Positions 47,941-62,014 of a stretch of DNA of 62,022 bases are shown here, one piece after another. The notes under the pieces were generated by a model. The model had not been told where the DNA came from. It searched no databases and worked only from the letters and a program-made list of their open reading frames with translations. The translations under genes and the position numbers were made by a program. The DNA is from a virus (taxonomy: Duplodnaviria; Heunggongvirae; Uroviricota; Caudoviricetes). Position 1 is the first letter of the stretch, and each line of letters starts with the position of its first letter. The stretch covers positions 1-62,022 of the IMG/VR virus record IMGVR_UViG_3300033489_000001, one strand, 5' to 3'.

Positions 47941-48837
47941 TCACGAAATATTGAGGGTTACTACAACATCCACACACATGTTTGAACTGTACCCGGTGAT
48001 CCTAAGTGTCTCCGTATAGCTGCCCGGCCCCATGGAACTCGCTGGAGCCACTACGACGATAATTGGTTGGGAAGCTCCTCCATTGATAGATCCGAAAACT
48101 GGAGCAAAGCTAACTAACCACGGAACGCCAACCAACTTGCGAATCTGATAGTCTAAAACAGAAGTCGCCAAACCAGTGTTGGTAAGCAAAATCTGTTGCG
48201 ATGGGATCGGCGGGAAGTCCCCCGTCAACGGTGCCGCCACATTGAACGAAAGGCTCGTAGGAACCGGAGTAATCACAGCCTTCGGCCGTACAACGATGCT
48301 CACAGGAATTACTTGCGGACTGTTTGGGGCAGCAGCGCTTTGAACCGTCAAACTAGCCGGATAAGGGCTGCCCACGGCCAACAAATTGGTGCTGTCTGCT
48401 GAAACATCAAAACTGCCCGAAGCATGAGCAACTAAACTGTCCACATTGGCTGGCATCGGGAAAACATACGGAACCGATGACGTAACCGTAGCCGCCAACA
48501 ATGACCCCAATATCCCGTTGTTCGTCAGAAGCACCGATTTGGCTACGGAAACCCCCCGGCCCTCGTCTGTAATGAAATCCAGGCTCGTAGGGCTCAGTAA
48601 AATGCTTGGCGTGTAGGCTTGGCGAACGTCTTCAATGGAATCCGCCATTGACTGCACGACCTCTCCAGGAATCGGAATTGAATCCCGTAAGAGGCCGTAA
48701 GGCGTAATTACGTCCCGAATTTGAGTGGTCGCGACCGCTTGGGATACATCCACACGGGTTGTCCATTTCCATACGCCACTTATTAGAGTGACTTGGAATT
48801 GGTAGTCTTGAAACCTAAGTAGGGGTTGACTAGACAA
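47941..48837 (-). CDS. Virion protein with two BACON/Ig-like domains
   Basis: Two copies of PTSLxF...LLTNxG...; WLVSF...GSYTETL. Confidence 0.7.
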   Translation of the reverse strand: MSSQPLLRFQDYQFQVTLISGVWKWTTRVDVSQAVATTQIRDVITPYGLLRDSIPIPGEVVQSMADSIEDVRQAYTPSILLSPTSLDFITDEGRGVSVAKSVLLTNNGILGSLLAATVTSSVPYVFPMPANVDSLVAHASGSFDVSADSTNLLAVGSPYPASLTVQSAAAPNSPQVIPVSIVVRPKAVITPVPTSLSFNVAAPLTGDFPPIPSQQILLTNTGLATSVLDYQIRKLVGVPWLVSFAPVFGSINGGASQPIIVVVAPASSMGPGSYTETLRITGYSSNMCVDVVVTLNIS

Positions 48838-48951: not shown

Positions 48952-49386
48952 ATGGCTATCCTTCAATGGTTTAAAAATCATCGCTATACAGCAACTCGAT
49001 CATTCCAAATAAGTTGTTATCTGGGCGTTGACGAAGAAAAACCTGAAGCAAAAATCTTTAAAGTGCATAAAATTTCTAAAGGGGAAACCCTCTATTTTGA
49101 CGGCACTATAGCTCGATACGGAGAAGAGAAGTTTAATTACCCAAACTTAGCAAAGGCTATCCAAGACGGCTGGCTCACGCCTTGGTATAAGTATCAAAAA
49201 GATAGCCCGAAATACGGTCGCCCAGCCAAAGCTCCAATAGTTCTCACGCCTGCTATAAAGGGAAAAATCTTTGATGATCCAGAAGAAGAGCGTAGAAAGT
49301 TCGACCAGGTCATCAACCAAGCTCTCCCTTCGGATCAAACTAAAGATGTTTTAAAGAAAGGTGAGACCTCTGAACCTAAAAGCTAA
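48952..49386 (+). CDS. Hypothetical protein; the only convincing plus-strand gene, sharing a domain with 18867..20000
   Basis: SD AAGGA; YTATRSF...YFDG...PNL..AI..GWL. Confidence 0.7.
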   Translation: MAILQWFKNHRYTATRSFQISCYLGVDEEKPEAKIFKVHKISKGETLYFDGTIARYGEEKFNYPNLAKAIQDGWLTPWYKYQKDSPKYGRPAKAPIVLTPAIKGKIFDDPEEERRKFDQVINQALPSDQTKDVLKKGETSEPKS

Positions 49387-50483
49387 GCCCAGTTCTCGTA
49401 GCGCCCTATCTTGTAAACTAAAGAGACGCCAACTCCAAACTCTTTGGCAATAACTTTGCGGGGAACCTTGGCCTTGATCTTTTGCCGAATGATCTTGACC
49501 TTCTCTTCATCTAGCTTCCCAGAACGGCTTGAAGGTTTCCTTGCCCGGTTCACTTCGGTCTTAGTAGCCCAGTGGCAGTTAGCGGGCCAGCCTTTTGCGA
49601 GGCACTCAGGGCACTTCCCGCAAGAGTAATGACCATCGCGAATGATCCTGATGGTTACGTGCTCCTTAGTAGGCTTCTTACCCAGGTCTTCAAAGAAGGC
49701 CTCAAAGTCATCCCGCCACCGCTGGCACATGGTAACGCCCTTAGCCCCATAGTCACAGTAGCGATCGGATTTAGGGTTGAAGCAACGAGTCTTGATATTT
49801 CCCCAAGTGCGGTATTCAGGCGTCTTGGAGCCGCCATGGTCATAGTTAAAATGAGAGGGGCCAGTTATAACAGGTCGTTTGTTCTTTTGCTGTTGGCTTC
49901 GAGTAGCCCAGCGAATGTTACCAGGGGCATAGGGGCCATCATTGTCAATTCTGTCTATACTATGCTTAGGTGACGGGCGTAGGCCAACGTATTCAAAGAA
50001 AGCTGTAAAGTCATGAATCCAAGGCTCATAAATTGTGATACCGCGCCCTCCCCATCTAGGATAGTTTGAGCTTTTAGGATTCAAGCAACGGTCTTTCATT
50101 GCTGACCAAATTCGGTATTCTGGAAGATGAATCAAACCGTGTTTGAAATTAGTTTTCCTATTATGATCTGGTTCCCGTAAAGTTACATTGCTCGTTCCTA
50201 ATGCCCGTCTATTGGCCGCCTGAGTATCCCAATCGACCCAAGCGACGTTTCCTGGCACATACCCAAGGCCATTTTTAAGCCGATCCAAAGAATGCTTAGG
50301 GGATGGACGAGGGCCAACATGTTCAAGAAAGGCCAGGAAATCGTGTTCCCATTCAGGAGCAATAGTAATCCCCCGGCCACCATAATACGGGTATGCCCGG
50401 TGATTTGGGTTTAGACAACGGGCTTTGATCTGACTCCAACAAGAATATTCGATAGTCTTACCAAGGCCATGTTTTAAGTACAT
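49383..50483 (-). CDS. HNH-type homing endonuclease with three tandem nuclease-like repeats
   Basis: Three copies of HG...EYxxWxxxKxRCxNP...GxxGxT...W..DF.AF, with SIDRIDNDGPYAPGNIRWAT. Confidence 0.8.
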   Translation of the reverse strand: MYLKHGLGKTIEYSCWSQIKARCLNPNHRAYPYYGGRGITIAPEWEHDFLAFLEHVGPRPSPKHSLDRLKNGLGYVPGNVAWVDWDTQAANRRALGTSNVTLREPDHNRKTNFKHGLIHLPEYRIWSAMKDRCLNPKSSNYPRWGGRGITIYEPWIHDFTAFFEYVGLRPSPKHSIDRIDNDGPYAPGNIRWATRSQQQKNKRPVITGPSHFNYDHGGSKTPEYRTWGNIKTRCFNPKSDRYCDYGAKGVTMCQRWRDDFEAFFEDLGKKPTKEHVTIRIIRDGHYSCGKCPECLAKGWPANCHWATKTEVNRARKPSSRSGKLDEEKVKIIRQKIKAKVPRKVIAKEFGVGVSLVYKIGRYENWA

Positions 50484-50597: not shown

Positions 50598-51224
50598 TTA
50601 TTCACAACGATCTAGGCCTCTATTTGCCCACTGTGGGAGACAAACGGATCGAAGTATGTTAAAATTTTTGGAAGATATGGAAGAAAAGATTTTCTCGTAA
50701 GGTCTATATCTTTCGTTTTTATCAGATTCAACTTGAAGAGTTTCAACGGCTTTGAAGAAGCGATGTCTAACCCGCCCCTGGGTCAATTTGAGTCTACTAG
50801 CAACTTCTGATTGACAAGTCGTTTGCCACATCCCCACCAAAATATTAATATCAATAAGCTCGAAAATCTCAGCTAAGTCCTTCCGCATCTCCTCTTCGGA
50901 AACTGTTGGAATGGACAGCAAAAATTTTATACGTTGAACTCCCCTATCCAAACGATAACTCACAGCTGCCTGGGTGACCGAAAAGATCTCAGCGATGTCG
51001 GCTTGGCGCTTCTTACACATGTAGTAAAGATAAATCAGGTCAGCTTCCCGATCAGGTATTCGGGATAAGAGAGGCATGATGAGCGTGTCATAGTCATCGG
51101 TGGAAAACAACACTTCCATCTCTGGATCATATTCTTCACGTTCATCAAGAGGTTCAACTTCGATCGCGGCAAAGCGGTTAGCTAATTCAGCGGGGTCTAC
51201 GGGGATAACATAGCCACTCGACAT
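50598..51224 (-). CDS. Transcription factor with two sigma70 region-4-like HTH domains
   Basis: IPDREADLIYLYY...QADIAEIFSVTQAAVSYRLDRG and QSEVASRLKLTQGRVRHRFFKA. Confidence 0.7.
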   Translation of the reverse strand: MSSGYVIPVDPAELANRFAAIEVEPLDEREEYDPEMEVLFSTDDYDTLIMPLLSRIPDREADLIYLYYMCKKRQADIAEIFSVTQAAVSYRLDRGVQRIKFLLSIPTVSEEEMRKDLAEIFELIDINILVGMWQTTCQSEVASRLKLTQGRVRHRFFKAVETLQVESDKNERYRPYEKIFSSISSKNFNILRSVCLPQWANRGLDRCE

Positions 51225-51248: not shown

Positions 51249-52655
51249 TCACAGTTGATCATTAGCAGAATTAAGCATTTCGCTCTCTGTTAATAACGGT
51301 TTTCCGTTGTAACTAGAGTCTTGGTTGAGCAGTCCCAACCGTGACCCAGTCCTTCTAACAAGAATCTCCTTTACCTGCCTGAAAGGCGTGTAAAGCTTGA
51401 TCTCAGGATCGTACATTCTTGCTAAAATGTTCTGAGCCGCGTTTTGATCAGCATCTAATACCGCCCCGTCGAAACAGTAAAATTTATCCCCAGATCTGGT
51501 CCCTAATAAGAAACCATTTCTAGAGTCCATTTGCGAGGTATAAGCTGCATTAACCAAAACAACCGTAGAACCTCTACGGTGAGAAACTGTGTTAATGGCT
51601 TGAACTAAAATACCTTTAACCCAAGCAGATAATCGTCTTGACTGATCTTTACTTTGTAACCTTTTGCTTTTAATAGGTGAAGTTAGATCCTCTACAGCGA
51701 TGATGCTTGCTTTATCAACAATTGAATGAGCCGCTTTAAAAACCAAATTGTGAACATTAGAGGTGTGCTTCTTCTTTTGAGAGTCAAGTTTTTTCCGCCC
51801 CAAGTTGTTAGTTAGTATATTGTCGCGCTTCTTGGGGTTGTTACTCTCACTATGCTTTTCTGCTAAAGATTTGAGCTTGTTACGTCTCTGATATCTTAAC
51901 TTTAAACGATCTGATTCGGTGGGTAAAAGATTTCCTAAACCTTTTCCATGCCTTTTCCCATTAGAATCAGTAAATGCTTCAGTGTAACCTTTATCAATCC
52001 CTAATGTTTGATCCCCACAAGGCTTTATAGAGCAAACTTCTTTTTCATCAACGGCATAATGTATTTCTACCCTATTGTTTTGTAAGATTAGCCGTAAGGT
52101 TTTTTGAGGTTCTACTAATGTATTTAAAGGAACAGCAATTCGTTTACCTCTCTCTAAACTCATTACCCTAAGCCAAGCTTTACCCTTACAAGAAAATGTA
52201 GTGTAACTTCCTGGTATAAAAAGAATTTGATTATTTACCGTAGTCTTACCGTGCTTAAAATTCTTTCGCATCAACCTTCTTAGGTAGGACTCTTCGTTCC
52301 ATCTATCGGTTTTTAGTAAAGTATATAGGCGTTTCTTCTCTGCTTCATTCTTAGTATGCTTATGAATTATTTTGCGAACTTGAACCTTGGATGCTTCCCG
52401 ATACGCAACAATATCTCCCCAAACATCGGCTAGGGTGGCTTTCCACAACCTTGCCGGAACATTAAATTTCTTCCCCTCCTCTAACCATTCATCCCGAACT
52501 TGACGATCCCCCTCAAAATTTAATCCTGCTAAAGAGCCGAACTGCCTCCAAACCTCAGTGCGAATTAAACCAAGGCGGGCAGCAAGCTCAGTCAACTGAT
52601 CAAACTTGCCTTGGTTCAAATTCTTACTAAAAGCTATTCTGGTTACCTCACTCAT
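51249..52655 (-). CDS. tnpB: TnpB-family RNA-guided endonuclease (RuvC intact, zinc finger degenerate)
   Basis: LGIDKG, AVEDL, VNAAYTSQ and DADQNAAQNI. Confidence 0.88.
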   Translation of the reverse strand: MSEVTRIAFSKNLNQGKFDQLTELAARLGLIRTEVWRQFGSLAGLNFEGDRQVRDEWLEEGKKFNVPARLWKATLADVWGDIVAYREASKVQVRKIIHKHTKNEAEKKRLYTLLKTDRWNEESYLRRLMRKNFKHGKTTVNNQILFIPGSYTTFSCKGKAWLRVMSLERGKRIAVPLNTLVEPQKTLRLILQNNRVEIHYAVDEKEVCSIKPCGDQTLGIDKGYTEAFTDSNGKRHGKGLGNLLPTESDRLKLRYQRRNKLKSLAEKHSESNNPKKRDNILTNNLGRKKLDSQKKKHTSNVHNLVFKAAHSIVDKASIIAVEDLTSPIKSKRLQSKDQSRRLSAWVKGILVQAINTVSHRRGSTVVLVNAAYTSQMDSRNGFLLGTRSGDKFYCFDGAVLDADQNAAQNILARMYDPEIKLYTPFRQVKEILVRRTGSRLGLLNQDSSYNGKPLLTESEMLNSANDQL

Positions 52656-52821
52656 TTTTCTATTCGTTTTGAAACGCTCAACTACAGATAAAAAATAACG
52701 GGTTTATTTAAGCCCCAAGACAAGAAAAGGTTCAATTTGTCTTGAGTTGAGGCGGGGCTAATCCTAGAAAGCTTCTTTAGAGGCTTCCCCTGATTTTTAG
52801 AATACTTAGGTATTATAGAGA

Positions 52822-54630
52822 TCAGGAGTCAGACGGAAAAAACGCATCTAGGAGGGAGTCAGTCTTTATCTCTAACTCTTTAAGTCTAGATTCAATTTCT
52901 ATCTTTAGAGAAGGGTTATTAACCTGATTTGGATTTGATTTGATCTGGTTAAACTCTACATCTCTGAGAGTCAACAATTCCACATTATCACGGATCCGCT
53001 GTTCATTTTGCCGCAGCTTAGTAACTTGATTTTCACTTAATCCGGCAAGGTTCGATGTTAACAAGGTAAAAACCGTCCCATACAGTTTGATCAATTTTGA
53101 CGCAGTTTTCAAGCCAAAACCCGTAACTCCAGAAATATTGTCCGAGCTATCCCCACTTAGTGCTCTAATGTGTACGATAGACGTAGGAGGTACTCCATAC
53201 TCTGACTTTACCAGACTAGGTTCGTATAACTTTTCCTTACTCAAACCTACAGTGGGGCACAACAAATGAGTAAACTCGGACACGAGCTGAAGCATGTCAC
53301 GATCAGTAGAAACAATAATGTTTAGGCTACCTTGCAACGGACCTCGAACCAAAGAAGCTATCACATCGTCCGCTTCTTCTTTAGCGTTATAGGCTTGCGA
53401 AATCCCAAACAAAGGGAGGGCATCTCGCAACCAATCTATCCCAAACGAGTCTCCAGCACTCCCCGTCCGGGCTACTCGGTTACCCTTATATTCAGGATAA
53501 ACGGCCTTGCGCCGTTGAGAGGAACCATCCCAACACACATAAAAGTGCGCTTTTGGAAATCGTTTTTTATACGATCCAAGACTTCTCAAGAATCCTACAA
53601 TAGCCCCCGTGGGTCTGCCTTTAGAATCAGTAAGAGTACCCAAGCCAGGGGCGTAAGCACATCGAATAAAAAGTTGAGTCCCGTCAACAACCAAATTCAC
53701 AGTGGATTCCGTCATGTTTTTCATGTCCCAATATAAACTACTGAGTTTTGTATAGGCATTTGAAAGTAACGTTACTTCTTTATATTTACTAACTACAGGA
53801 CTCCAATCCGGCAAAGCAGTGTTAGAAACCAAGATTTGATTTTGTAAAGTAACCCCGGAACACAACTGATCAAAATCATTAAATTTACGTAAGATCGGCC
53901 CAAATTCAATCTGTTTTTGATAGGCTCGTATGAAGAAATACACCTCTCTACTTTGACTCAACCATTTATTCCACTGCGTAAAGTTTTTAAAATTGTCATG
54001 AATACCCTCAAAACCATTTGAGGGCCATTCAACTAACCTAAGGGCCATCTTTGCCCAATTTGAAATGGAATTGAAGTTAGAGAGATAGACAACTTGGAGC
54101 GGTTTGGACTTTAACCTAAGGAATGCCCTGGGCAAAGTCACCAAGCGATCGGTAGATCGTAATTGAATATGAACTACCACGGAATCCTGCTCAGGAATTT
54201 CTTCGCGAACAACGGCTGAAATATTCTTATAGGGACCAGAAGTAATAACTACCGTATCATTGATCTCAATCCCCTGATCTACCTCTACTTTTATTTGAGA
54301 TTGAAGATGATTGATCTCAGACAAAGAGACCATGGCAAGGCGCTTGTCTTTTTTATTTCCGGTTGGAACATACAAAGGCCCCAGGACATATTTTGTATCT
54401 ATTAAACGAGCGTAATGTCCTTCAGGATGCAGATGTTTAACAAAAGCATAACCTTCCATCAAATAATGAAAAACTCGTTGATCCCCTCTCTGAACAACCG
54501 AAGCCGGAACAAAAACCTCTGCATCCTTGATACGATGTTTAATTGAAGCCCGCACCATATCAGGATCTTCATTTTCGGCCTTAGAGTTAAGCTCTAATAC
54601 CACCCATTGTGTGTCTTCAAGCATTGACAC
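52822..54630 (-). CDS. NusG-like (NGN+KOW) domain fused to a PolA/FEN-type 5'-3' exonuclease
   Basis: NusG: WVVL...EVFVP...LMEGYAFV...VVITSGPYKN. Exonuclease: VVDG, WDG...RRKAVYPEYKGNR, EADDVIA, STDRDMLQL, LSGDSSDNISGVTGFGLKTA. Confidence 0.88.
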   Translation of the reverse strand: MSMLEDTQWVVLELNSKAENEDPDMVRASIKHRIKDAEVFVPASVVQRGDQRVFHYLMEGYAFVKHLHPEGHYARLIDTKYVLGPLYVPTGNKKDKRLAMVSLSEINHLQSQIKVEVDQGIEINDTVVITSGPYKNISAVVREEIPEQDSVVVHIQLRSTDRLVTLPRAFLRLKSKPLQVVYLSNFNSISNWAKMALRLVEWPSNGFEGIHDNFKNFTQWNKWLSQSREVYFFIRAYQKQIEFGPILRKFNDFDQLCSGVTLQNQILVSNTALPDWSPVVSKYKEVTLLSNAYTKLSSLYWDMKNMTESTVNLVVDGTQLFIRCAYAPGLGTLTDSKGRPTGAIVGFLRSLGSYKKRFPKAHFYVCWDGSSQRRKAVYPEYKGNRVARTGSAGDSFGIDWLRDALPLFGISQAYNAKEEADDVIASLVRGPLQGSLNIIVSTDRDMLQLVSEFTHLLCPTVGLSKEKLYEPSLVKSEYGVPPTSIVHIRALSGDSSDNISGVTGFGLKTASKLIKLYGTVFTLLTSNLAGLSENQVTKLRQNEQRIRDNVELLTLRDVEFNQIKSNPNQVNNPSLKIEIESRLKELEIKTDSLLDAFFPSDS

Positions 54631-54650: not shown

Positions 54651-57389
54651 TCATTTCCGCAATAAAGGATCCAACCTTTTTTTCAAGAATTGTTCAAAAA
54701 TTCTGCACCATTCTTCGGGAGGCATCTCCTTAATCTCTTTAATCTCGGACTTAGATTTGGCACGTTGTAAAGACTCCTCTTTTGGTTTTGCCATTCTTGG
54801 CAAGGGGGTATTCACAACCAAAAGATCGGTTTCCGAAGGTTCCGTTTGATCCGCAAGATCATTAGAAGTAACTGGTTCTGGACTGCTTACTTTTGATTCT
54901 TTTAAAGTTACTACTTGAAGAACGGCGGGCTTAGCCACCTGTTGTGCTTGCCCATCTACCATAATCGGTTTAGCTGCTTGTTGTGCTTGTTCCACGCTTG
55001 CAAAGACCACGGGAGGGGTTGGGTTATCTAAAGGTAGATTACCGGGAGTTTGGGAGAAAACGACCACATCTCTAACTAGACTTATTTTGGTTGTGTATTT
55101 AGAACCCAAAAACCAATAAGCAAACTTCACAACGTTGGCCTGATATTTAGCATAAATTTGCTCAGCCAACCCTCTATCAACTAACGAAAAATTCGCATGT
55201 ATTTTATTAACCACGCGATATGTATTCATCGCCGCTTCGGCTATACCCGCAGACACTTCCTCAGGAGCAACCTGTTCACACGCTTGGTCTATCAACTCGA
55301 TAGCTTGCGTTGGATTACCTAAACTCAACAAAATCTTGTAATATAATGTAATTACAGATAAATGGAGGTACTCCCGCACGTTACTCGCAGTTATGGGACC
55401 TAATTGAGAAATCATCTCCAGTTTATTTATTACGTCCCGAATATGCCCTCCTGAATGATCGATAACTGCATAGATGGCATCATCTTCATATTGAACTTTT
55501 TCAGTTTCCAAAATTATACGCATCCGTTTAAGGATCTCTTCCCTAGTAACCTTACGGATTGTGTATTCCTCACAGCGTGAACGAATGGCACCACGAATCT
55601 TTTCGGCCTCAGTGGTGCAAAACATCCCAATCATTTTTTTATCTTCGAGCGGCTTAAGCAATACATCTTGAGCCGCTATGCTCATACGATGAGCTTCATC
55701 AAAAAGGTAGATACGCTTAGGAGCATTGATCAAGACATAAGGCAACTCTTCGATGATCGCTCTAGCGTGATCAATTGTTCCCTGGCTGGCAGCATCCCGC
55801 TCTACGAACGGACCCGGTTGTCCCTCTAAAATAGTTGTGCAGTTATCACATTTATTGCAAGGCTCAGGATTAGTCTTGTCAAGATCTTGACAAAGCATTG
55901 CCCTGGCAAGAATACGCGCAATAGTCGTATTATGATTCATAAACCCGTTAGCTGCAAACATCTCTCCTTCAGGCACATTAAGATCAAACACTTCACATTT
56001 TCCCGACGTGATGCTTTCTATAGAATCAAAAAAATACCCACTATCTAACAACGACTTGAAATGCCCCTGAGGATCATACTCAGAAAATTCATAAACAATT
56101 TTCTGAACATGGGACATAGTGCAAATACCTGTTTGCGATGCGTTTGCAAAAAATACCCTAGCACCTTTACGCGCTAACTCCTCAGGGAAATTATTGTAAA
56201 ACGACTTAATCCAGGTACTTTGGTGAGGCACTACCTCTCGAATATTAGTAGTTACTCCTTTGCCTTTTGCATGACGCTGCTTGATTAAATCTACTAACTG
56301 CTGCCTCTTTCGTCTGGAGATAAAACCTATCTCTTTTTGAAATACCTCACGAAAAGGACCAGGAATACGAATACGCCAATAAATCCCATACTTCTTGTGT
56401 CGTTTGGAAAACCTACGTGAAACAACTCCAAAAGACAGCAATAAAAGTTGTAACTGACGACCCAATACTTCCGACTTTGTCAAAGCTTCTATTGCATAAC
56501 CTGACACAGAACCATCACATTCAAAATAAGCTCGCAAAAATTCACGTATCACCTCTTTCGGAGATACCATCACAGACCAAGGAACAACCTTACCTCCCGC
56601 TGTAGCGTACCCCAACCCAATTTGTTCTAAGAAATAACGTGCTTTAATTCCAGATAACCGCAAAGATTCTAAAGACTTTCTGCGCTTATCTGGAGTTCTA
56701 CCTACGTGTCCAATTAAACTACAACCTAATCTAACAATGTCCTCCTTAACATCTTTCTCTGCACAAGCAATACTTATATAGGTACGACTCGTGGCACTCC
56801 CATCTCCAATAATATAACCTATAAGACGACCCCACTCCGGAGTCAAAACACTGGGGACTTCGAAAGATTTAGAATTAGTAGCGTGTGGGAGAGGAACGTA
56901 GCTCTTTAGAAGGGATAAATCCGCACCCTCCCCAAAGACTCCACCACGAATGATACAGGCTATGTCCCCTTCTTTCAAATCCCCTAGACACCTCCACTCA
57001 ATACAACCAGATTCCCCTAAAACCCGAATTCGATGATTCAGAGTGCCCTCTAACTCTAACCCTAAATGAGTTTTGATATGGACAGTCTCTTGAACTCCGC
57101 CTCGATATGAATAAGCAGTTGTGCTCTCCAAATTATTTTCTTGGAGAACTTTAACCGCCAAGGGGTCAATTTTACGAGACCCCATTAAATCCAAAATCTG
57201 GACTGTACCCTTTGAAGAAGGGATAAGAGTGTCTCCGCTAATACATTTGCCCCGTCCGAAGGCTCCGGCAAAAATGTAACTAGTATCAAAGGCCGTCCCA
57301 TTCTTTAGCCGGGACTTAAGAAGTTGGACGTTTCCTTCTTGACCTAAGACATCAGAGAATTTTATAGGTCTATGGCGAATATCCCACAC
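54651..57389 (-). CDS. dnaX: DNA polymerase III gamma/tau-like clamp loader containing an intein
   Basis: RHRPIKFSDVLGQ; GxxGRGK/TT; zinc motif C...PCNKCDNC; DEAH; IRSRC. Confidence 0.9.
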   Translation of the reverse strand: MWDIRHRPIKFSDVLGQEGNVQLLKSRLKNGTAFDTSYIFAGAFGRGKCISGDTLIPSSKGTVQILDLMGSRKIDPLAVKVLQENNLESTTAYSYRGGVQETVHIKTHLGLELEGTLNHRIRVLGESGCIEWRCLGDLKEGDIACIIRGGVFGEGADLSLLKSYVPLPHATNSKSFEVPSVLTPEWGRLIGYIIGDGSATSRTYISIACAEKDVKEDIVRLGCSLIGHVGRTPDKRRKSLESLRLSGIKARYFLEQIGLGYATAGGKVVPWSVMVSPKEVIREFLRAYFECDGSVSGYAIEALTKSEVLGRQLQLLLLSFGVVSRRFSKRHKKYGIYWRIRIPGPFREVFQKEIGFISRRKRQQLVDLIKQRHAKGKGVTTNIREVVPHQSTWIKSFYNNFPEELARKGARVFFANASQTGICTMSHVQKIVYEFSEYDPQGHFKSLLDSGYFFDSIESITSGKCEVFDLNVPEGEMFAANGFMNHNTTIARILARAMLCQDLDKTNPEPCNKCDNCTTILEGQPGPFVERDAASQGTIDHARAIIEELPYVLINAPKRIYLFDEAHRMSIAAQDVLLKPLEDKKMIGMFCTTEAEKIRGAIRSRCEEYTIRKVTREEILKRMRIILETEKVQYEDDAIYAVIDHSGGHIRDVINKLEMISQLGPITASNVREYLHLSVITLYYKILLSLGNPTQAIELIDQACEQVAPEEVSAGIAEAAMNTYRVVNKIHANFSLVDRGLAEQIYAKYQANVVKFAYWFLGSKYTTKISLVRDVVVFSQTPGNLPLDNPTPPVVFASVEQAQQAAKPIMVDGQAQQVAKPAVLQVVTLKESKVSSPEPVTSNDLADQTEPSETDLLVVNTPLPRMAKPKEESLQRAKSKSEIKEIKEMPPEEWCRIFEQFLKKRLDPLLRK
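55929..57245 (-). mobile_element. Intein (~439 aa) with LAGLIDADG endonuclease, inserted in the DnaX Walker A (GK/T)
   Basis: Starts CISGDT; contains GTLNH, IGYIIGDG and LRAYFECDG; ends NHN followed by extein Thr. Confidence 0.92.
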
Positions 57390-59803: not shown

Positions 59804-60478
59804 TCAGCTATTCTCCCGCTGCAACCGGAAGCAACGCATTCCATCATCAGTTAAAACCTCAGATCCTCTATACCCGATCATAGCGTGATCAAGAAAAGAA
59901 TCCTTTTGGGTTACAAGCAAGATAGTTATTCCGGTTTTTAAAGCCAGTTGTCTTAAAAAGACTCCTGTTTGATCTATATACTCATCAGAATTCACAGCGC
60001 CTAATGTTTCGTCAAGTACTAACAAGGGCCATTTTTTCAACCGACGTAATGCTAACATCCGCAAAATCAATGAAGCAATGCTTGCAGGACCTCCTCCGAA
60101 CGACTCTAAAGGATGCCCTTTTATTTTCATCCACTGCGTATCTTGACGGATATAAAAATCAATAGCCATCTTATTATATCGTTGGGACACCTCTGCTTCA
60201 AAAGACAAATCCTGATCGACAAAAATAGTGTGTAAGCCCTCTGTGATCACACTCTCAATTGACCGAATATGGCCCATCACGAGCTGATCCATAAGGGCTC
60301 GGAATAACTCTCCTACCTTAGATAAAATGTCCAATTTACAGGTGAGATCAAATATCTCCTGCTCGCGCAAAGCTAACTCATGTTGAAGTTGACCACGCAA
60401 AGCTTGAAGGCCGGAACAGGTTTCCCTGAGGGTTCTAACTCTTAATCTAGTCCGGGAGCGAAACGGGTCACTCGGCAT
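59804..60478 (-). CDS. Rad50/SbcC/SMC-like ABC ATPase, C-terminal half only (start probably MPSDPF)
   Basis: Coiled coil followed by ESFGGG, LLVLDE and ILLVTQ; no Walker A. Confidence 0.7.
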   Translation of the reverse strand: MPSDPFRSRTRLRVRTLRETCSGLQALRGQLQHELALREQEIFDLTCKLDILSKVGELFRALMDQLVMGHIRSIESVITEGLHTIFVDQDLSFEAEVSQRYNKMAIDFYIRQDTQWMKIKGHPLESFGGGPASIASLILRMLALRRLKKWPLLVLDETLGAVNSDEYIDQTGVFLRQLALKTGITILLVTQKDSFLDHAMIGYRGSEVLTDDGMRCFRLQRENS

Positions 60479-61731
60479 ACATGCATTCCTTCTGGTACAT
60501 CTTGTACACCTTCTATACCCGATGCTGCACCACACACCACACCCTCCTCAGACACACGAAACTCATCAATCGTTCGAAACATGACTAGTGCTTTTGTCCG
60601 CTGACCACCCGCTGGCAAGATCATGATTCTGAATTCAACCCATGACCCCTCTGCTCCCCCAAATATATGGAGCATGTGTTCAACGTTAACGTTCGTAATC
60701 AACTCCTCCATAATTTTAATTTCTGTAAATTTATTTTCCTTATCTTCTTCAAGGGGAACCGTCAAACTATTAATAGTGGTTCCCTCATCCACGCTAGAAA
60801 ACCAGAATTCCTTCTTTGAAGGATCAAAATGAAACCGAATCTTCTTCTTATCTTTATGCAACCCTTCTCGCATATACTGTAATTGCAGAGACATGGCCTT
60901 CCAACCTACTCGAACAACAATTTGATCATTCTTACTATAATAAGAAAACTTTTGGTAGGTTTCTGAGTGATGAGGCCATCCCACCACATCATTATTCTCG
61001 TTTATGACGTATGTACACTTATCCGTTTTATACACGCGCAAAGATCCTGATGATTGGGCTAGAAACGCTTCAAGCAAAGGTAAATGCTGCCATGGAGCGG
61101 TCAAACCTTTTCCAACAAAAGCATCACTATGGAAATAGCACGCTTCAACTCCATTAGAAGCAAAAAGATAGCCACTGGCTTTTTTGGCTAATTCTGGATC
61201 CTTTTCGTCCCCAAAAACCTGGACCGTCTTATAGAACTCGTGTGCAACAGGTTCCTTTTCTTTTGCAGCAAAAGATTTAGCCATGCCCAGAGCTAATTGT
61301 AAAATCTTAATACTAAATACCTTGGGTTGCTGAGAATCTATTGCAGCTCGAATGTCCTTCTCAAACGAATTCATTGATCGTGGATCAAAAGACGGGCGGT
61401 CAACTACTCCAACCGTCCCATGGGTATGTCTAACCTTGAAAACTTTCCCTTCCTCCGTAGCCACAAACGCAATTGGCCCGGAAATGCAACTGAGTGTACC
61501 GATATAGTCAGAAGGGTACATAAAAAACCCGGCTCCTTCTACATCGGAGATGGAGAAACTAGAACGAGCTTCGTGTCCCCCATTCTTAGAATAGATATGA
61601 CATCTGTCCCCACCCACTACGAACAAGTAGCCTCGCTCTTGTTCCGCCAAAACCTGAGGACTGACAATAGAAGCCATTTTAAGGGCTTTGTTTAATTGAT
61701 CTGCATCGACTGTAAATTTGATCTCCGTCAT
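60442..61731 (-). CDS. DNA polymerase III beta/sliding-clamp-like protein (start probably MTEIKF)
   Basis: IKFTVDADQLNKAL N-terminus; LFASNG; size; neighbouring dnaX and primase. Confidence 0.55.
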   Translation of the reverse strand: MTEIKFTVDADQLNKALKMASIVSPQVLAEQERGYLFVVGGDRCHIYSKNGGHEARSSFSISDVEGAGFFMYPSDYIGTLSCISGPIAFVATEEGKVFKVRHTHGTVGVVDRPSFDPRSMNSFEKDIRAAIDSQQPKVFSIKILQLALGMAKSFAAKEKEPVAHEFYKTVQVFGDEKDPELAKKASGYLFASNGVEACYFHSDAFVGKGLTAPWQHLPLLEAFLAQSSGSLRVYKTDKCTYVINENNDVVGWPHHSETYQKFSYYSKNDQIVVRVGWKAMSLQLQYMREGLHKDKKKIRFHFDPSKKEFWFSSVDEGTTINSLTVPLEEDKENKFTEIKIMEELITNVNVEHMLHIFGGAEGSWVEFRIMILPAGGQRTKALVMFRTIDEFRVSEEGVVCGAASGIEGVQDVPEGMHVCRVTRFAPGLD

Positions 61732-61744
61732 AACCCAACCTTCC

Positions 61745-62014
61745 TTATTTTTGCTGAAACATCGAAAGAGCTTGTTCAACTTCAGTTAGCTCTTTATCCA
61801 ATTTTACTACCATTTCTTCTAACTCTTTTCTAGCCTTGTCCCGTTCTTTAGCAATATTCTTAGGATCAAATCCTGCGGCTCGTATTTCTTGGACAATAGT
61901 AGCCAACTCCTCTTTCTTAGCCTGCAATTGACCAGCTAAACCAGCCTTTTTTTGAATAACCGCATTATGCCTTCGTTGTAGTTCATCAATCTTTTTCTTA
62001 ATGTCATCGGACAT
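61745..62014 (-). CDS. Small coiled-coil protein
   Basis: Heptad pattern throughout. Confidence 0.6.
   Translation of the reverse strand: MSDDIKKKIDELQRRHNAVIQKKAGLAGQLQAKKEELATIVQEIRAAGFDPKNIAKERDKARKELEEMVVKLDKELTEVEQALSMFQQK

What the first reader, a model, noticed from the sequence alone, without database searches (positions are those of the whole stretch)
52822..54630. NusG-5'-3' exonuclease fusion protein
Seen: one uninterrupted 602-aa ORF with NGN+KOW domains (aa ~1-175), a helical linker, and a complete PolA/FEN-type 5' nuclease with its acidic catalytic motifs intact (aa ~310-560). Known: NusG/Spt5 rides on elongating RNA polymerase, and 5'-3' nuclease 'torpedo' termination is described for Xrn2/Rat1 and archaeal FttA. 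FEN-type nucleases remove primers and RNA:DNA hybrids. Inference: the phage tethers a 5' nuclease to RNAP, possibly for torpedo-like termination or host shut-off, R-loop removal, or coupling late transcription to replication. Its position beside the clamp, clamp loader and a sigma-4 protein fits the last idea. I do not recognise this fusion from characterised proteins.
Basis: partly seen in the sequence, partly recalled or inferred. Interest (0 to 1): 0.8.

Follow-up and report, generated by a model that had tools for sequence, protein, structure and literature searches.

The report
Huge-phage NusG-like factor fused to flap nuclease
A 411-kb uncultured phage, like well over a hundred relatives, joins a divergent copy of the RNA-polymerase-riding factor NusG to its only DNA flap nuclease in one protein, always next to a sigma-region-4 gene, which points to an undescribed and testable link between phage transcription and DNA replication.

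Summary
One intact ORF on the MINUS strand (52822..54630, 602 aa; the likely start is the ATG at 54624) has four parts: a NusG/Spt5-type NGN+KOW module (aa 8-176), a variable four-helix spacer (177-309), a complete Pol I-type 5' nuclease/FEN (310-565), and a conserved hydrophobic C-terminal peptide.

It is not an assembly artefact. More than 120 protein clusters and 48 viral loci carry the fusion. It is absent from cellular genomes and from cultured phages.

New here: the invariant unit is NusG-like gene -> double sigma-4 gene. FEN is absent from that locus, lies between the two as a separate gene, or is fused. The fused forms make one clade with a few secondary breaks. The FEN is the genome's only one, and its tail resembles a beta-clamp-binding motif. 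The phage encodes its own beta clamp and clamp loader in the same gene array, and no RNA polymerase or sigma region 2 was detected.

Best reading (inferred): the NGN module docks on host RNA polymerase together with the sigma-4 partner, and so tethers the clamp-binding replication nuclease to transcription, with a logic like T4 or Mu. Torpedo termination is unlikely. No paper in the library describes it.

The same scan has already found this fusion in at least six other huge-phage genomes.

The parts
52822..54630 (-). NusG-like/FEN fusion gene, 602 aa as listed (stop at 52822-52824). The probable true start is the ATG at 54624 (600 aa).
54295..54609 (-). NGN domain (aa 8-112), with the invariant GYAF (60-63) aligned to NusG GYVL and RfaH Y54/F56
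54103..54294 (-). KOW beta-barrel (aa 113-176), the most conserved part (66% mean pairwise identity)
53704..54102 (-). Variable four-helix spacer (aa 177-309): 18% mean identity, 97-178 aa in relatives
52936..53703 (-). Pol I-type 5' nuclease/FEN (aa 310-565) with all nine carboxylates, the arch K/R and the H3TH
52837..52854 (-). C-terminal peptide LLDAFF (aa 593-598; family consensus [IL]LxAFF), a candidate beta-clamp-binding motif
50598..51224 (-). Partner gene: a 208-aa protein with two sigma-70 region-4 HTH units and a conserved N-terminal DPxELxxRF peptide. It lies directly downstream of the fusion in relatives.
51249..52655 (-). TnpB-like gene inserted between the fusion and its sigma-4 partner. 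It is absent at this place in relatives.
54651..57389 (-). Clamp-loader ATPase (DNA_pol3_delta2) interrupted by a LAGLIDADG intein. It lies directly upstream, and in relatives its end overlaps the fusion's start.
60442..61779 (-). Divergent beta-type sliding clamp (start probably at residue 17)

Best explanation
The gene encodes a two-module protein specific to a clade of uncultured huge phages.

Shown: the N-terminal 176 residues have the NGN+KOW architecture of the NusG/Spt5 family. The C-terminal half is an apparently active Pol I-type flap endonuclease / 5'-3' exonuclease and is the phage's only one. The two are joined by a poorly conserved helical spacer of 97-178 residues. The protein ends in a conserved hydrophobic peptide of the kind that binds beta sliding clamps.

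Inferred:
(1) The NGN module binds the beta' clamp helices of the host RNA polymerase, because no phage polymerase is detectable.
(2) It acts together with the double sigma-4 protein that is always encoded next to it, which would hold the beta flap. This makes a phage-specific transcription module at the head of the co-directional structural (late) gene block.
(3) The FEN half works on nicks, flaps and RNA primers on replicating phage DNA and holds the phage beta clamp through its tail.
(4) The fusion therefore tethers RNA polymerase to clamp-loaded, replicating DNA. This couples late transcription to replication, as T4 does with gp55/gp33/gp45 and Mu does with MuC and the beta clamp. At the same time it places a nuclease that can remove RNA:DNA flaps where the two machineries meet.
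For: Architecture:
- FEN.
- NGN+KOW.
- NGN, KOW and FEN are equally constrained (57, 66 and 57% mean identity), while the spacer is 18%.
- The Tyr that is near-universal in NusG paralogues and lies on the presumed beta'-clamp-helix surface (RfaH Y54), and the RfaH-type Phe (F56), are invariant here as Y61 and F63 (PMC2871177).

Link to transcription:
- A sigma-4 gene follows in 48 of 48 fused loci, in 12 of 12 loci with NusG-like alone, and in 10 of 11 split loci (the eleventh ends at the contig end).
- One lineage has NusG-FEN-sigma4 as a single 840-aa ORF.
- Another phage contig has a complete sigma70 fused to the same NusG-like module.
- No RNA polymerase beta or beta' and no sigma region 2 were detected in the 411-kb genome.

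Link to replication:
- It is the only FEN in the genome, and PolA has no 5' nuclease.
- The gene is embedded in the array clamp, ATPase, primase, clamp loader.
- The clamp is of the beta type.
- Free-standing FENs of the sister clade end in [FY]SLFD, and the fused ones end in [IL]LxAFF. This compares with the QLSLF clamp-binding motif (PMC5397184).
- In this genome, L[FL]D.[LF] tails occur at 6 of 560 C-termini against 0.13% of interior windows.

Position: the gene lies at the replication/morphogenesis border, with the large terminase 10 kb downstream on the same strand.

Precedent for clamp-coupled late transcription: PMC7892883 and PMC12867686.
Against: No binding or activity was tested, and no complex could be modelled with these tools.

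The clamp-like tail belongs to the FEN module. The stand-alone NusG-like proteins and the sigma-4 partners carry no such tail, so clamp coupling cannot be a general property of the NusG-like/sigma-4 pair.

Heritable secondary fissions exist (the L010+L053 sister pair; the L011 cluster of five), so the covalent link is not essential.

The spacer is long and poorly conserved, which also fits two independent activities on one chain.

The tail consensus [IL]LxAFF is only loosely like QL[SD]LF, and my genome-wide pattern was widened after I had seen the tail.

Sequence scores to curated NusG models are far below their cut-offs.
Confidence: 0.42

Rival explanations
1. Two independent jobs on one chain. 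The NusG-like module acts on RNA polymerase (for example as an RfaH/LoaP-like processive antiterminator for the long late operon). The FEN removes Okazaki primers at the fork. The fusion only ensures co-expression, or is a tolerated accident of neighbouring genes.
For: - The spacer is long, variable and poorly conserved (18% identity, 97-178 aa).
- pTM of 0.53 despite high pLDDT suggests no fixed arrangement between domains.
- Split forms exist in a sister clade and as secondary breaks.
- Twelve loci keep NusG-like plus sigma-4 with no FEN between them.
Against: - The fusion has been kept across a clade that has diverged to about 34% identity, in 39 of 44 sampled rows.
- Where the halves are split, they stay adjacent and in the same order.
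- A spacer of 97-178 residues is present in all 34 aligned fused proteins, and the N-terminal half keeps it after secondary fission.
Confidence: 0.25
2. Co-transcriptional removal of RNA:DNA hybrids. The NGN module parks the FEN at the upstream edge of the elongation complex. There it cuts 5' RNA flaps of R-loops, or mRNA that the replisome has used as a primer after co-directional collisions, and so protects a genome whose genes run almost all one way.
For: - FEN/Pol I 5' nucleases remove RNA primers and flaps (established knowledge; PMC7824862, proposes this role for jumbo-phage flap nucleases).
- The NGN site on RNA polymerase is beside the upstream DNA (PMC7819879).
- All 62 kb of the window is transcribed from one strand.
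Against: No direct evidence. This reading does not explain the obligatory sigma-4 partner or the clamp-type tail.
Confidence: 0.18
3. Torpedo-like termination or host shut-off: the nuclease degrades nascent RNA 5'->3' and dislodges RNA polymerase, as Xrn2/Rat1 does.
For: Only the analogy of a 5'-3' nuclease tethered to a NusG/Spt5 factor (papers listed).
Against: - The domain is a bacterial Pol I/FEN type, whose nearest structures are FenA, ExoIX, T5 FEN and Taq. It is not an RNase J, beta-CASP or XRN enzyme.
- It is the sole FEN of a phage whose PolA lacks one.
- It carries a clamp-type tail and sits in a replication array.
Confidence: 0.04
4. The NGN-KOW module does not bind RNA polymerase. 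It has been recruited as an adaptor for another partner (a replisome protein, the ribosome through KOW, or the sigma-4 protein alone).
For: - The module is very divergent from cellular NusG.
- KOW is the best conserved part, and KOW domains bind varied partners (PMC7819879).
Against: - All known NGN domains bind the same RNA polymerase elements (PMC7819879).
- The Tyr and Phe of that surface are invariant.
- Fusions and synteny link the module to sigma domains, which are RNA polymerase subunits.
Confidence: 0.1

Closest known systems
Specialised NusG paralogues (RfaH, LoaP, UpxY, ActX/TaA) and housekeeping NusG/Spt5
   Same: NGN followed by KOW, with the same fold and order. The conserved Tyr of the RNA-polymerase-binding surface is present, and the Phe is RfaH-type. 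Like these paralogues, it is encoded by a horizontally mobile genome, next to a long operon that it could serve.
   Different: Scores are far below every curated model (TIGR00922 30 bits against 135.7; LoaP 24 against 125; UpxY 16 against 100). It carries a helical spacer and a nuclease, which the NusG review read here does not mention for any NusG relative. It always has a double sigma-4 gene as neighbour. No recruitment element is known.
Bacterial/phage Pol I-type 5' nucleases (Pol I N-terminal domain, FenA, ExoIX/Xni, T5 D15, T4 RNase H)
   Same: Both Pfam domains, all nine carboxylates, the arch Lys/Arg and the H3TH are present. The best structural matches are FenA, ExoIX, T5 FEN and Taq.
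   Different: It is fused at its N-terminus to a transcription-factor module instead of at its C-terminus to a polymerase, and it ends in a clamp-type peptide.
T4 late-transcription complex (gp55 + gp33 + gp45 clamp) and Mu MuC with the host beta clamp
   Same: Proposed logic only. One part sits on the beta' clamp helices and one on the beta flap. A clamp-binding peptide is held on a linker. Clamp and clamp loader genes lie alongside, and the genes sit at the replication/late border (PMC7892883; PMC12867686).
   Different: No homology to gp55, gp33 or MuC was tested or seen. The clamp-helix binder would be an NGN domain rather than a sigma-2-like fold. The clamp peptide sits on a nuclease. Stand-alone NusG-like relatives have no such peptide.
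Eukaryotic/archaeal FEN1 with its C-terminal PIP box on PCNA
   Same: A flap nuclease that ends in a short hydrophobic clamp-docking peptide (own knowledge; 8yjv PCNA-FEN1 appears among the fold matches).
   Different: A different FEN subfamily, a beta-type clamp, and an extra NusG module.

Membership tests
NusG/Spt5 family | NGN alpha/beta domain fold | tested here: met
   RfaH NGN 8pen_P Z 9.6, rmsd 3.4, 97 of 101 residues; Spt5 NGN 3lpe Z 7.8; 1nz8 Z 7.6. The Foldseek top 25 are all NusG/RfaH/Spt5.
NusG/Spt5 family | KOW beta-barrel directly after the NGN | tested here: met
   2xhc NusG KOW Z 11.2, rmsd 1.2, 56 aligned. Both domains together match 4zn3 Spt5 (Z 10.7, 141 aligned) and 1m1g NusG (Z 9.9, 149 aligned). 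Pfam KOW is weak at 0.0064.
NusG/Spt5 family | Sequence match to family models | tested here: inconclusive
   Below the curated cut-offs: PF02357 15.7 bits against 22.2; TIGR00922 30.2 bits against 135.7. However, the family profile finds 2lq8 NusG at 4.4e-8, and hhalign to E. coli NusG is collinear over 141 columns with E 4e-4.
NusG/Spt5 family | Conserved Tyr on the beta' clamp-helix-binding surface (RfaH Y54) | tested here: met
   Y61 is invariant in 34 of 34 sequences and aligns to the Tyr of NusG GYVL. F63 is invariant at the RfaH F56 position (PMC2871177).
NusG/Spt5 family | Binds RNA polymerase elongation complexes | not testable with these tools
   No complex modelling or assay was available.
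Housekeeping NusG, RfaH, LoaP, UpxY (named subfamilies) | Reaches the NCBIfam cut-off of the subfamily | tested here: not met
   nusG 30.2 bits against 135.7; LoaP 24.4 against 125; UpxY 16.1 against 100. It is therefore filed as a separate phage clade of the family, not under any named subfamily.
Pol I-type 5'-3' exonuclease / FEN | 5_3_exonuc_N and 5_3_exonuc domains above the gathering score | tested here: met
   96.4 bits against 34.3, and 56.2 bits against 40.
Pol I-type 5'-3' exonuclease / FEN | Two-metal-site carboxylates and arch Lys/Arg | tested here: met
   D316 D368 E419 D421 D422 D443 D445 D494 D497, plus Y381 K382 R385. They align to Taq and M. smegmatis Pol I and are invariant in the family.
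Pol I-type 5'-3' exonuclease / FEN | Flap endonuclease / 5' exonuclease activity | not testable with these tools
   This needs an enzyme assay.
Clamp-coupled late transcription (T4 gp55/gp33/gp45 type; Mu MuC type) | Homology to gp55, gp33 or MuC | not tested
   None appeared among the Pfam, PHROG or NCBIfam matches of the fusion or its sigma-4 neighbour. No dedicated search was made.
Clamp-coupled late transcription (T4 gp55/gp33/gp45 type; Mu MuC type) | Clamp-binding motif on the transcription factor | tested here: inconclusive
   A conserved [IL]LxAFF tail in the fused forms, [FY]SLFD on the free FENs of the sister clade, and enrichment of L[FL]D.[LF] at C-termini in this genome. There was no binding test, and the stand-alone NusG-like and sigma-4 proteins have no tail.
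Clamp-coupled late transcription (T4 gp55/gp33/gp45 type; Mu MuC type) | A sliding clamp and loader available to the system | tested here: met
   Beta-type clamp at 60442-61779 (Atlas feature score 0.95, TM 0.69-0.77; profile to 1vpk 6.3e-8) and clamp loader at 54651-57389.

The most novel reading that the evidence does not exclude
The NusG-like module, the double sigma-4 protein and the clamp-binding FEN together form a new kind of phage late-transcription apparatus. An NGN domain, rather than sigma region 2, holds the beta' clamp helices. The sigma-4 protein holds the beta flap and reads DNA. The phage beta clamp, loaded at replication nicks that the FEN recognises, activates or licenses transcription. 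This would be a sigma-2-less, replication-gated system, convergent with T4 gp55/gp33/gp45.
Probability: 0.15. Interest if true: 0.9.

Novelty: new variant of a known kind. Interest (0 to 1): 0.72.

Why it matters
NusG/Spt5 is the only transcription factor conserved in all life. In the NusG review read here and the other papers searched, its relatives are never reported to carry a nuclease.

A large, globally distributed clade of huge phages has fixed such a fusion, using the phage's only flap nuclease. They keep it beside a sigma-4 protein, a beta clamp and a clamp loader.

If the NGN module does ride on host RNA polymerase, this is a ready-made physical bridge between transcription and replication or repair. 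It could show how giant phage genomes with very long one-way gene arrays time late expression and avoid R-loops and collisions between transcription and replication.

The wider NusG-like/sigma-4 gene pair (about 70 loci here) is itself an undescribed phage transcription module. All parts are small soluble domains, so the predictions can be tested directly.

Tried and rejected
- Internal start at MKNMTEST: no Shine-Dalgarno sequence upstream, and the Met is absent in distant relatives. A minor free-FEN product cannot be excluded.
- The 'split' gene in L007 is a single in-frame TGA inside an otherwise continuous frame. I do not count it as a two-gene form.
- The conserved ~300-aa gene after the sigma-4 gene (47941-48837) is not the clamp. 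It has no Pfam or PHROG match, and the Atlas lead is weak (0.77, Ig-like).
- GenBank phages match only the FEN half (580 records, none covering 80% or more). The sigma-4 partner hits a single unannotated 485-kb 'uncultured phage' record.
- The GGTGTA promoter-like motif noted elsewhere in this genome is not enriched in this window (13 found, 18 expected). I did not use it.
- A phage RNA polymerase or sigma region 2 was not found (PF00562, PF00623, PF04542 even at E<=10, and a sigma70 protein query). The PF00940 search had no working control, so a T7-type enzyme is not excluded.
- The spacer has no fold assignment. The fold searches were filled by the KOW and NGN domains.
- Residue-level RNA polymerase contacts could not be taken from the cryo-EM preprint text.
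- Literature: six searches and targeted reads found no description of a NusG-nuclease fusion. JGI's automatic name '5'-3' exonuclease/transcription antitermination factor NusG' shows that pipelines see both parts.
Full report
WHAT IS THERE

The stated coordinates hold one uninterrupted 602-codon frame, but on the minus strand. The window is the first 62 kb of a 411,618-bp virus record with direct terminal repeats. Almost every gene in the window is on the minus strand. The Met at residue 3 is invariant in 34 relatives, so the ATG at 54624 is the likely start.

THE NUCLEASE HALF

Residues 313-557 match both Pfam 5'-3' exonuclease domains well above threshold. They also match Pol I and stand-alone 5' nuclease models in NCBIfam. 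A family profile finds M. smegmatis Pol I (5.5e-45), Taq, FenA, ExoIX and T5 FEN. Foldseek on the AlphaFold model (pLDDT 85.8) gives the same set.

The residue-by-residue alignment to Taq and M. smegmatis Pol I shows all nine active-site carboxylates, the YK..R arch residues and the GD..D...G.G H3TH segment. All are invariant in the family. It is the only PF02739 match in the genome. The phage's family-A DNA polymerase lies 250 kb away and has no such domain. So this should be the phage's primer and flap nuclease.

THE NusG-LIKE HALF

Single-sequence scores are weak: TIGR00922 3.4e-7, LoaP 2.6e-5, Pfam KOW 0.006, PHROG 'transcription antiterminator' 1.5e-4. Four independent lines agree, however.
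- The family profile hits T. maritima NusG at 4.4e-8.
- hhalign to E. coli NusG is collinear over 141 columns.
- A model of residues 1-310 (pLDDT 89.9) has only NusG, RfaH and Spt5 chains among its best Foldseek matches.
- An aligner that does not depend on Foldseek gives NusG KOW Z 11.2 (rmsd 1.2 A), RfaH NGN Z 9.6 (97 of 101 residues) and two-domain matches to Spt5 and Aquifex NusG at Z about 10.

The invariant GYAF (60-63) aligns with NusG GYVL. [quoted passage not shown] The Phe corresponds to the RfaH-specific F56 (PMC2871177).

It reaches no curated subfamily cut-off, so I file it as a separate, phage-specific clade of the NusG family.

SPACER AND TAIL

Residues 183-309 are four long helices. 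Across 34 relatives NGN, KOW and FEN are 57, 66 and 57% identical on average. The spacer is only 18% identical and 97-178 residues long.

The protein ends in SLLDAFFPSDS, and L594, F597 and F598 are at least 90% conserved.

IS THE FUSION REAL AND CONSERVED?

Yes.
- More than 120 clusters (at 90% identity) of 536-690 residues cover 98-100% of the query, down to 38% identity, on contigs up to 549 kb.
- An HMM tally of all proteins retrieved gave 169 with NGN-KOW plus FEN.
- 48 IMG/VR or assembly loci carry it.
- Among one genome for each of 185,579 prokaryote species, only the FEN half matches (PolA). The exceptions are three contigs of 2.6-7 kb in MAGs that look like phage fragments.
- No cultured phage in GenBank has it.

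THE WIDER PATTERN

Scanning all fetched loci with my own HMMs shows that the constant unit is a NusG-like gene followed by a gene for a ~210-residue protein with two sigma-70 region-4 units. There are three states:
- (i) NusG-like then sigma-4, with no FEN between: 12 loci, on contigs up to 619 kb.
- (ii) A short NusG-like gene, a separate FEN gene, then sigma-4: 7 loci.
- (iii) The fusion, then sigma-4: 48 of 48 loci.

In this window a TnpB gene and an HNH gene have been inserted on either side of the sigma-4 gene. Relatives lack them there.

A maximum-likelihood tree of the NGN-KOW module puts all 39 fused rows in one clade (UFBoot 95, SH-aLRT 85). That clade also holds four broken genes and one sigma70-NusG-like protein. 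States (i) and (ii) form the sister clade. The root rests on a very long E. coli branch, so 'single origin with a few losses' is the parsimonious reading, not a proof.

The breaks differ in kind. L007 is one in-frame TGA. L010 and L053 are sister rows that share a break at the spacer/FEN border, with an ATG five codons before the VVVDG motif in L010. L011 belongs to a cluster of five proteins from several samples. Heritable fission therefore happens, and the N-terminal half keeps the spacer.

LINKS TO RNA POLYMERASE

Besides the synteny, one lineage has NusG-FEN-sigma4 as a single 840-residue ORF. An 18-kb phage-like contig encodes a full sigma-70 factor (regions 2-4) with this same NusG-like module at its C-terminus (45% identity, 2e-27). 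That is a single sequence, so it needs caution.

The genome has no detectable RNA polymerase beta or beta' and no sigma region 2. The target should therefore be the host enzyme.

LINKS TO THE REPLISOME

The gene array reads clamp, ATPase, two small genes, Toprim primase, metallopeptidase, clamp loader, fusion, sigma-4, then the structural genes and terminase. The 445-residue ORF at 60442-61779 is a divergent beta clamp: Atlas feature score 0.95 with viral and bacterial beta-clamp clusters, TM 0.69-0.77 over 364 residues, and a family profile that hits T. maritima beta at 6.3e-8.

The tail belongs to the FEN. Free FENs of state (ii) end in [FY]SLFD, close to the QLSLF clamp-binding motif (PMC5397184). 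Stand-alone NusG-like proteins stop just after the KOW domain, and the sigma-4 proteins have no such tail.

In this genome L[FL]D.[LF] occurs in 6 of 560 C-termini against 0.13% of interior 16-residue windows. I widened the pattern after seeing the fusion's tail, so this is supportive only.

HOW IT PROBABLY WORKS

Shown: the domain identities, the intact active site, conservation, synteny, and the presence of a clamp and loader.

Inferred: the NGN module binds the host polymerase. The sigma-4 partner binds the beta flap. The tail binds the phage clamp. The chain therefore ties transcription to replicating, nicked DNA.

T4 does this with gp55 on the clamp helices, gp33 on the flap, and clamp-binding motifs on linkers (PMC7892883). 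Mu does it with MuC and the host beta clamp (PMC12867686).

I give this 0.42. The main rival (0.25) is that the two modules work independently and the link is only tolerated. An RNA-polymerase-tethered R-loop or primer remover is 0.18. A non-polymerase partner for the NGN-KOW module is 0.10. Torpedo termination is 0.04.

NOVELTY

The parts are known and the combination is not. None of the huge- or jumbo-phage papers, nor the NusG family review, that I searched or read mentions it. JGI's pipeline names both COGs.

Earlier follow-ups in this same scan reached the same verdict on at least six other genomes.
- the three-state NusG-like/sigma-4 module and its tree;
- assignment of the clamp-type tail to the FEN;
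- identification of the phage beta clamp;
- the sigma70-NusG-like fusion;
- the invariant Tyr and Phe of the polymerase-binding surface.

Noticed in passing
window 54651-57389 (-): The clamp-loader ATPase carries a LAGLIDADG intein (Intein_splicing plus LAGLIDADG_3, inserted before the DNA_pol3_delta2 part). The same gene is 915 aa with an intein in L006, but 478 aa without one in L004 and L005.
   Followed up: partly
window 51249-52655 (-) and 49383-50483 (-): A TnpB-like gene and an HNH endonuclease gene sit on either side of the sigma-4 gene. They interrupt an array (fusion, sigma-4, ~300-aa gene) that is contiguous in relatives. A hairpin-rich 166-nt spacer (52656-52821) lies between the fusion's stop and tnpB.
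   Followed up: partly
window 60442-61779 (-): A divergent beta sliding clamp that Pfam and NCBIfam DnaN models miss entirely. It was recognised only by Atlas features and structure and by a family profile against 1vpk. The likely start is at residue 17.
   Followed up: yes
window 50598-51224 (-); A3; The sigma-4 partner has a strongly conserved N-terminal peptide, [VIM]DPxE[LI]xxR[FY]S, followed by an acidic stretch. It is kept in all three architecture clades, so it is a candidate docking peptide of unknown partner.
   Followed up: partly
L009:3612-5237 (P0175): A complete sigma-70-family factor (regions 2-4) fused to the phage-type NusG-like module, on an 18-kb contig with Ku and a helicase. 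It is a single sequence. If real, sigma and an NGN domain would compete for the same polymerase site within one chain.
   Followed up: partly
genome C1: 202803-203216, 274495-274905, 279459-280145, 284672-285364, 293311-293790: Five further ORFs end in L[FL]D.[LF] tails, four of them followed by acidic residues. This is about an eight-fold excess over interior windows, so they may form a network of clamp clients in this phage.
   Followed up: partly
window 59804-60535 (-): A 243-aa ATPase (phrog_15167, 9.5e-14) overlaps the end of the clamp gene. It is possibly a second clamp-loader subunit.
   Followed up: no
L007:3864-3869: A single in-frame TGA in the spacer of an otherwise intact fusion gene (RL*DW, where relatives have RLGDW). 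It could be a sequencing error, a recent pseudogene or read-through.
   Followed up: partly
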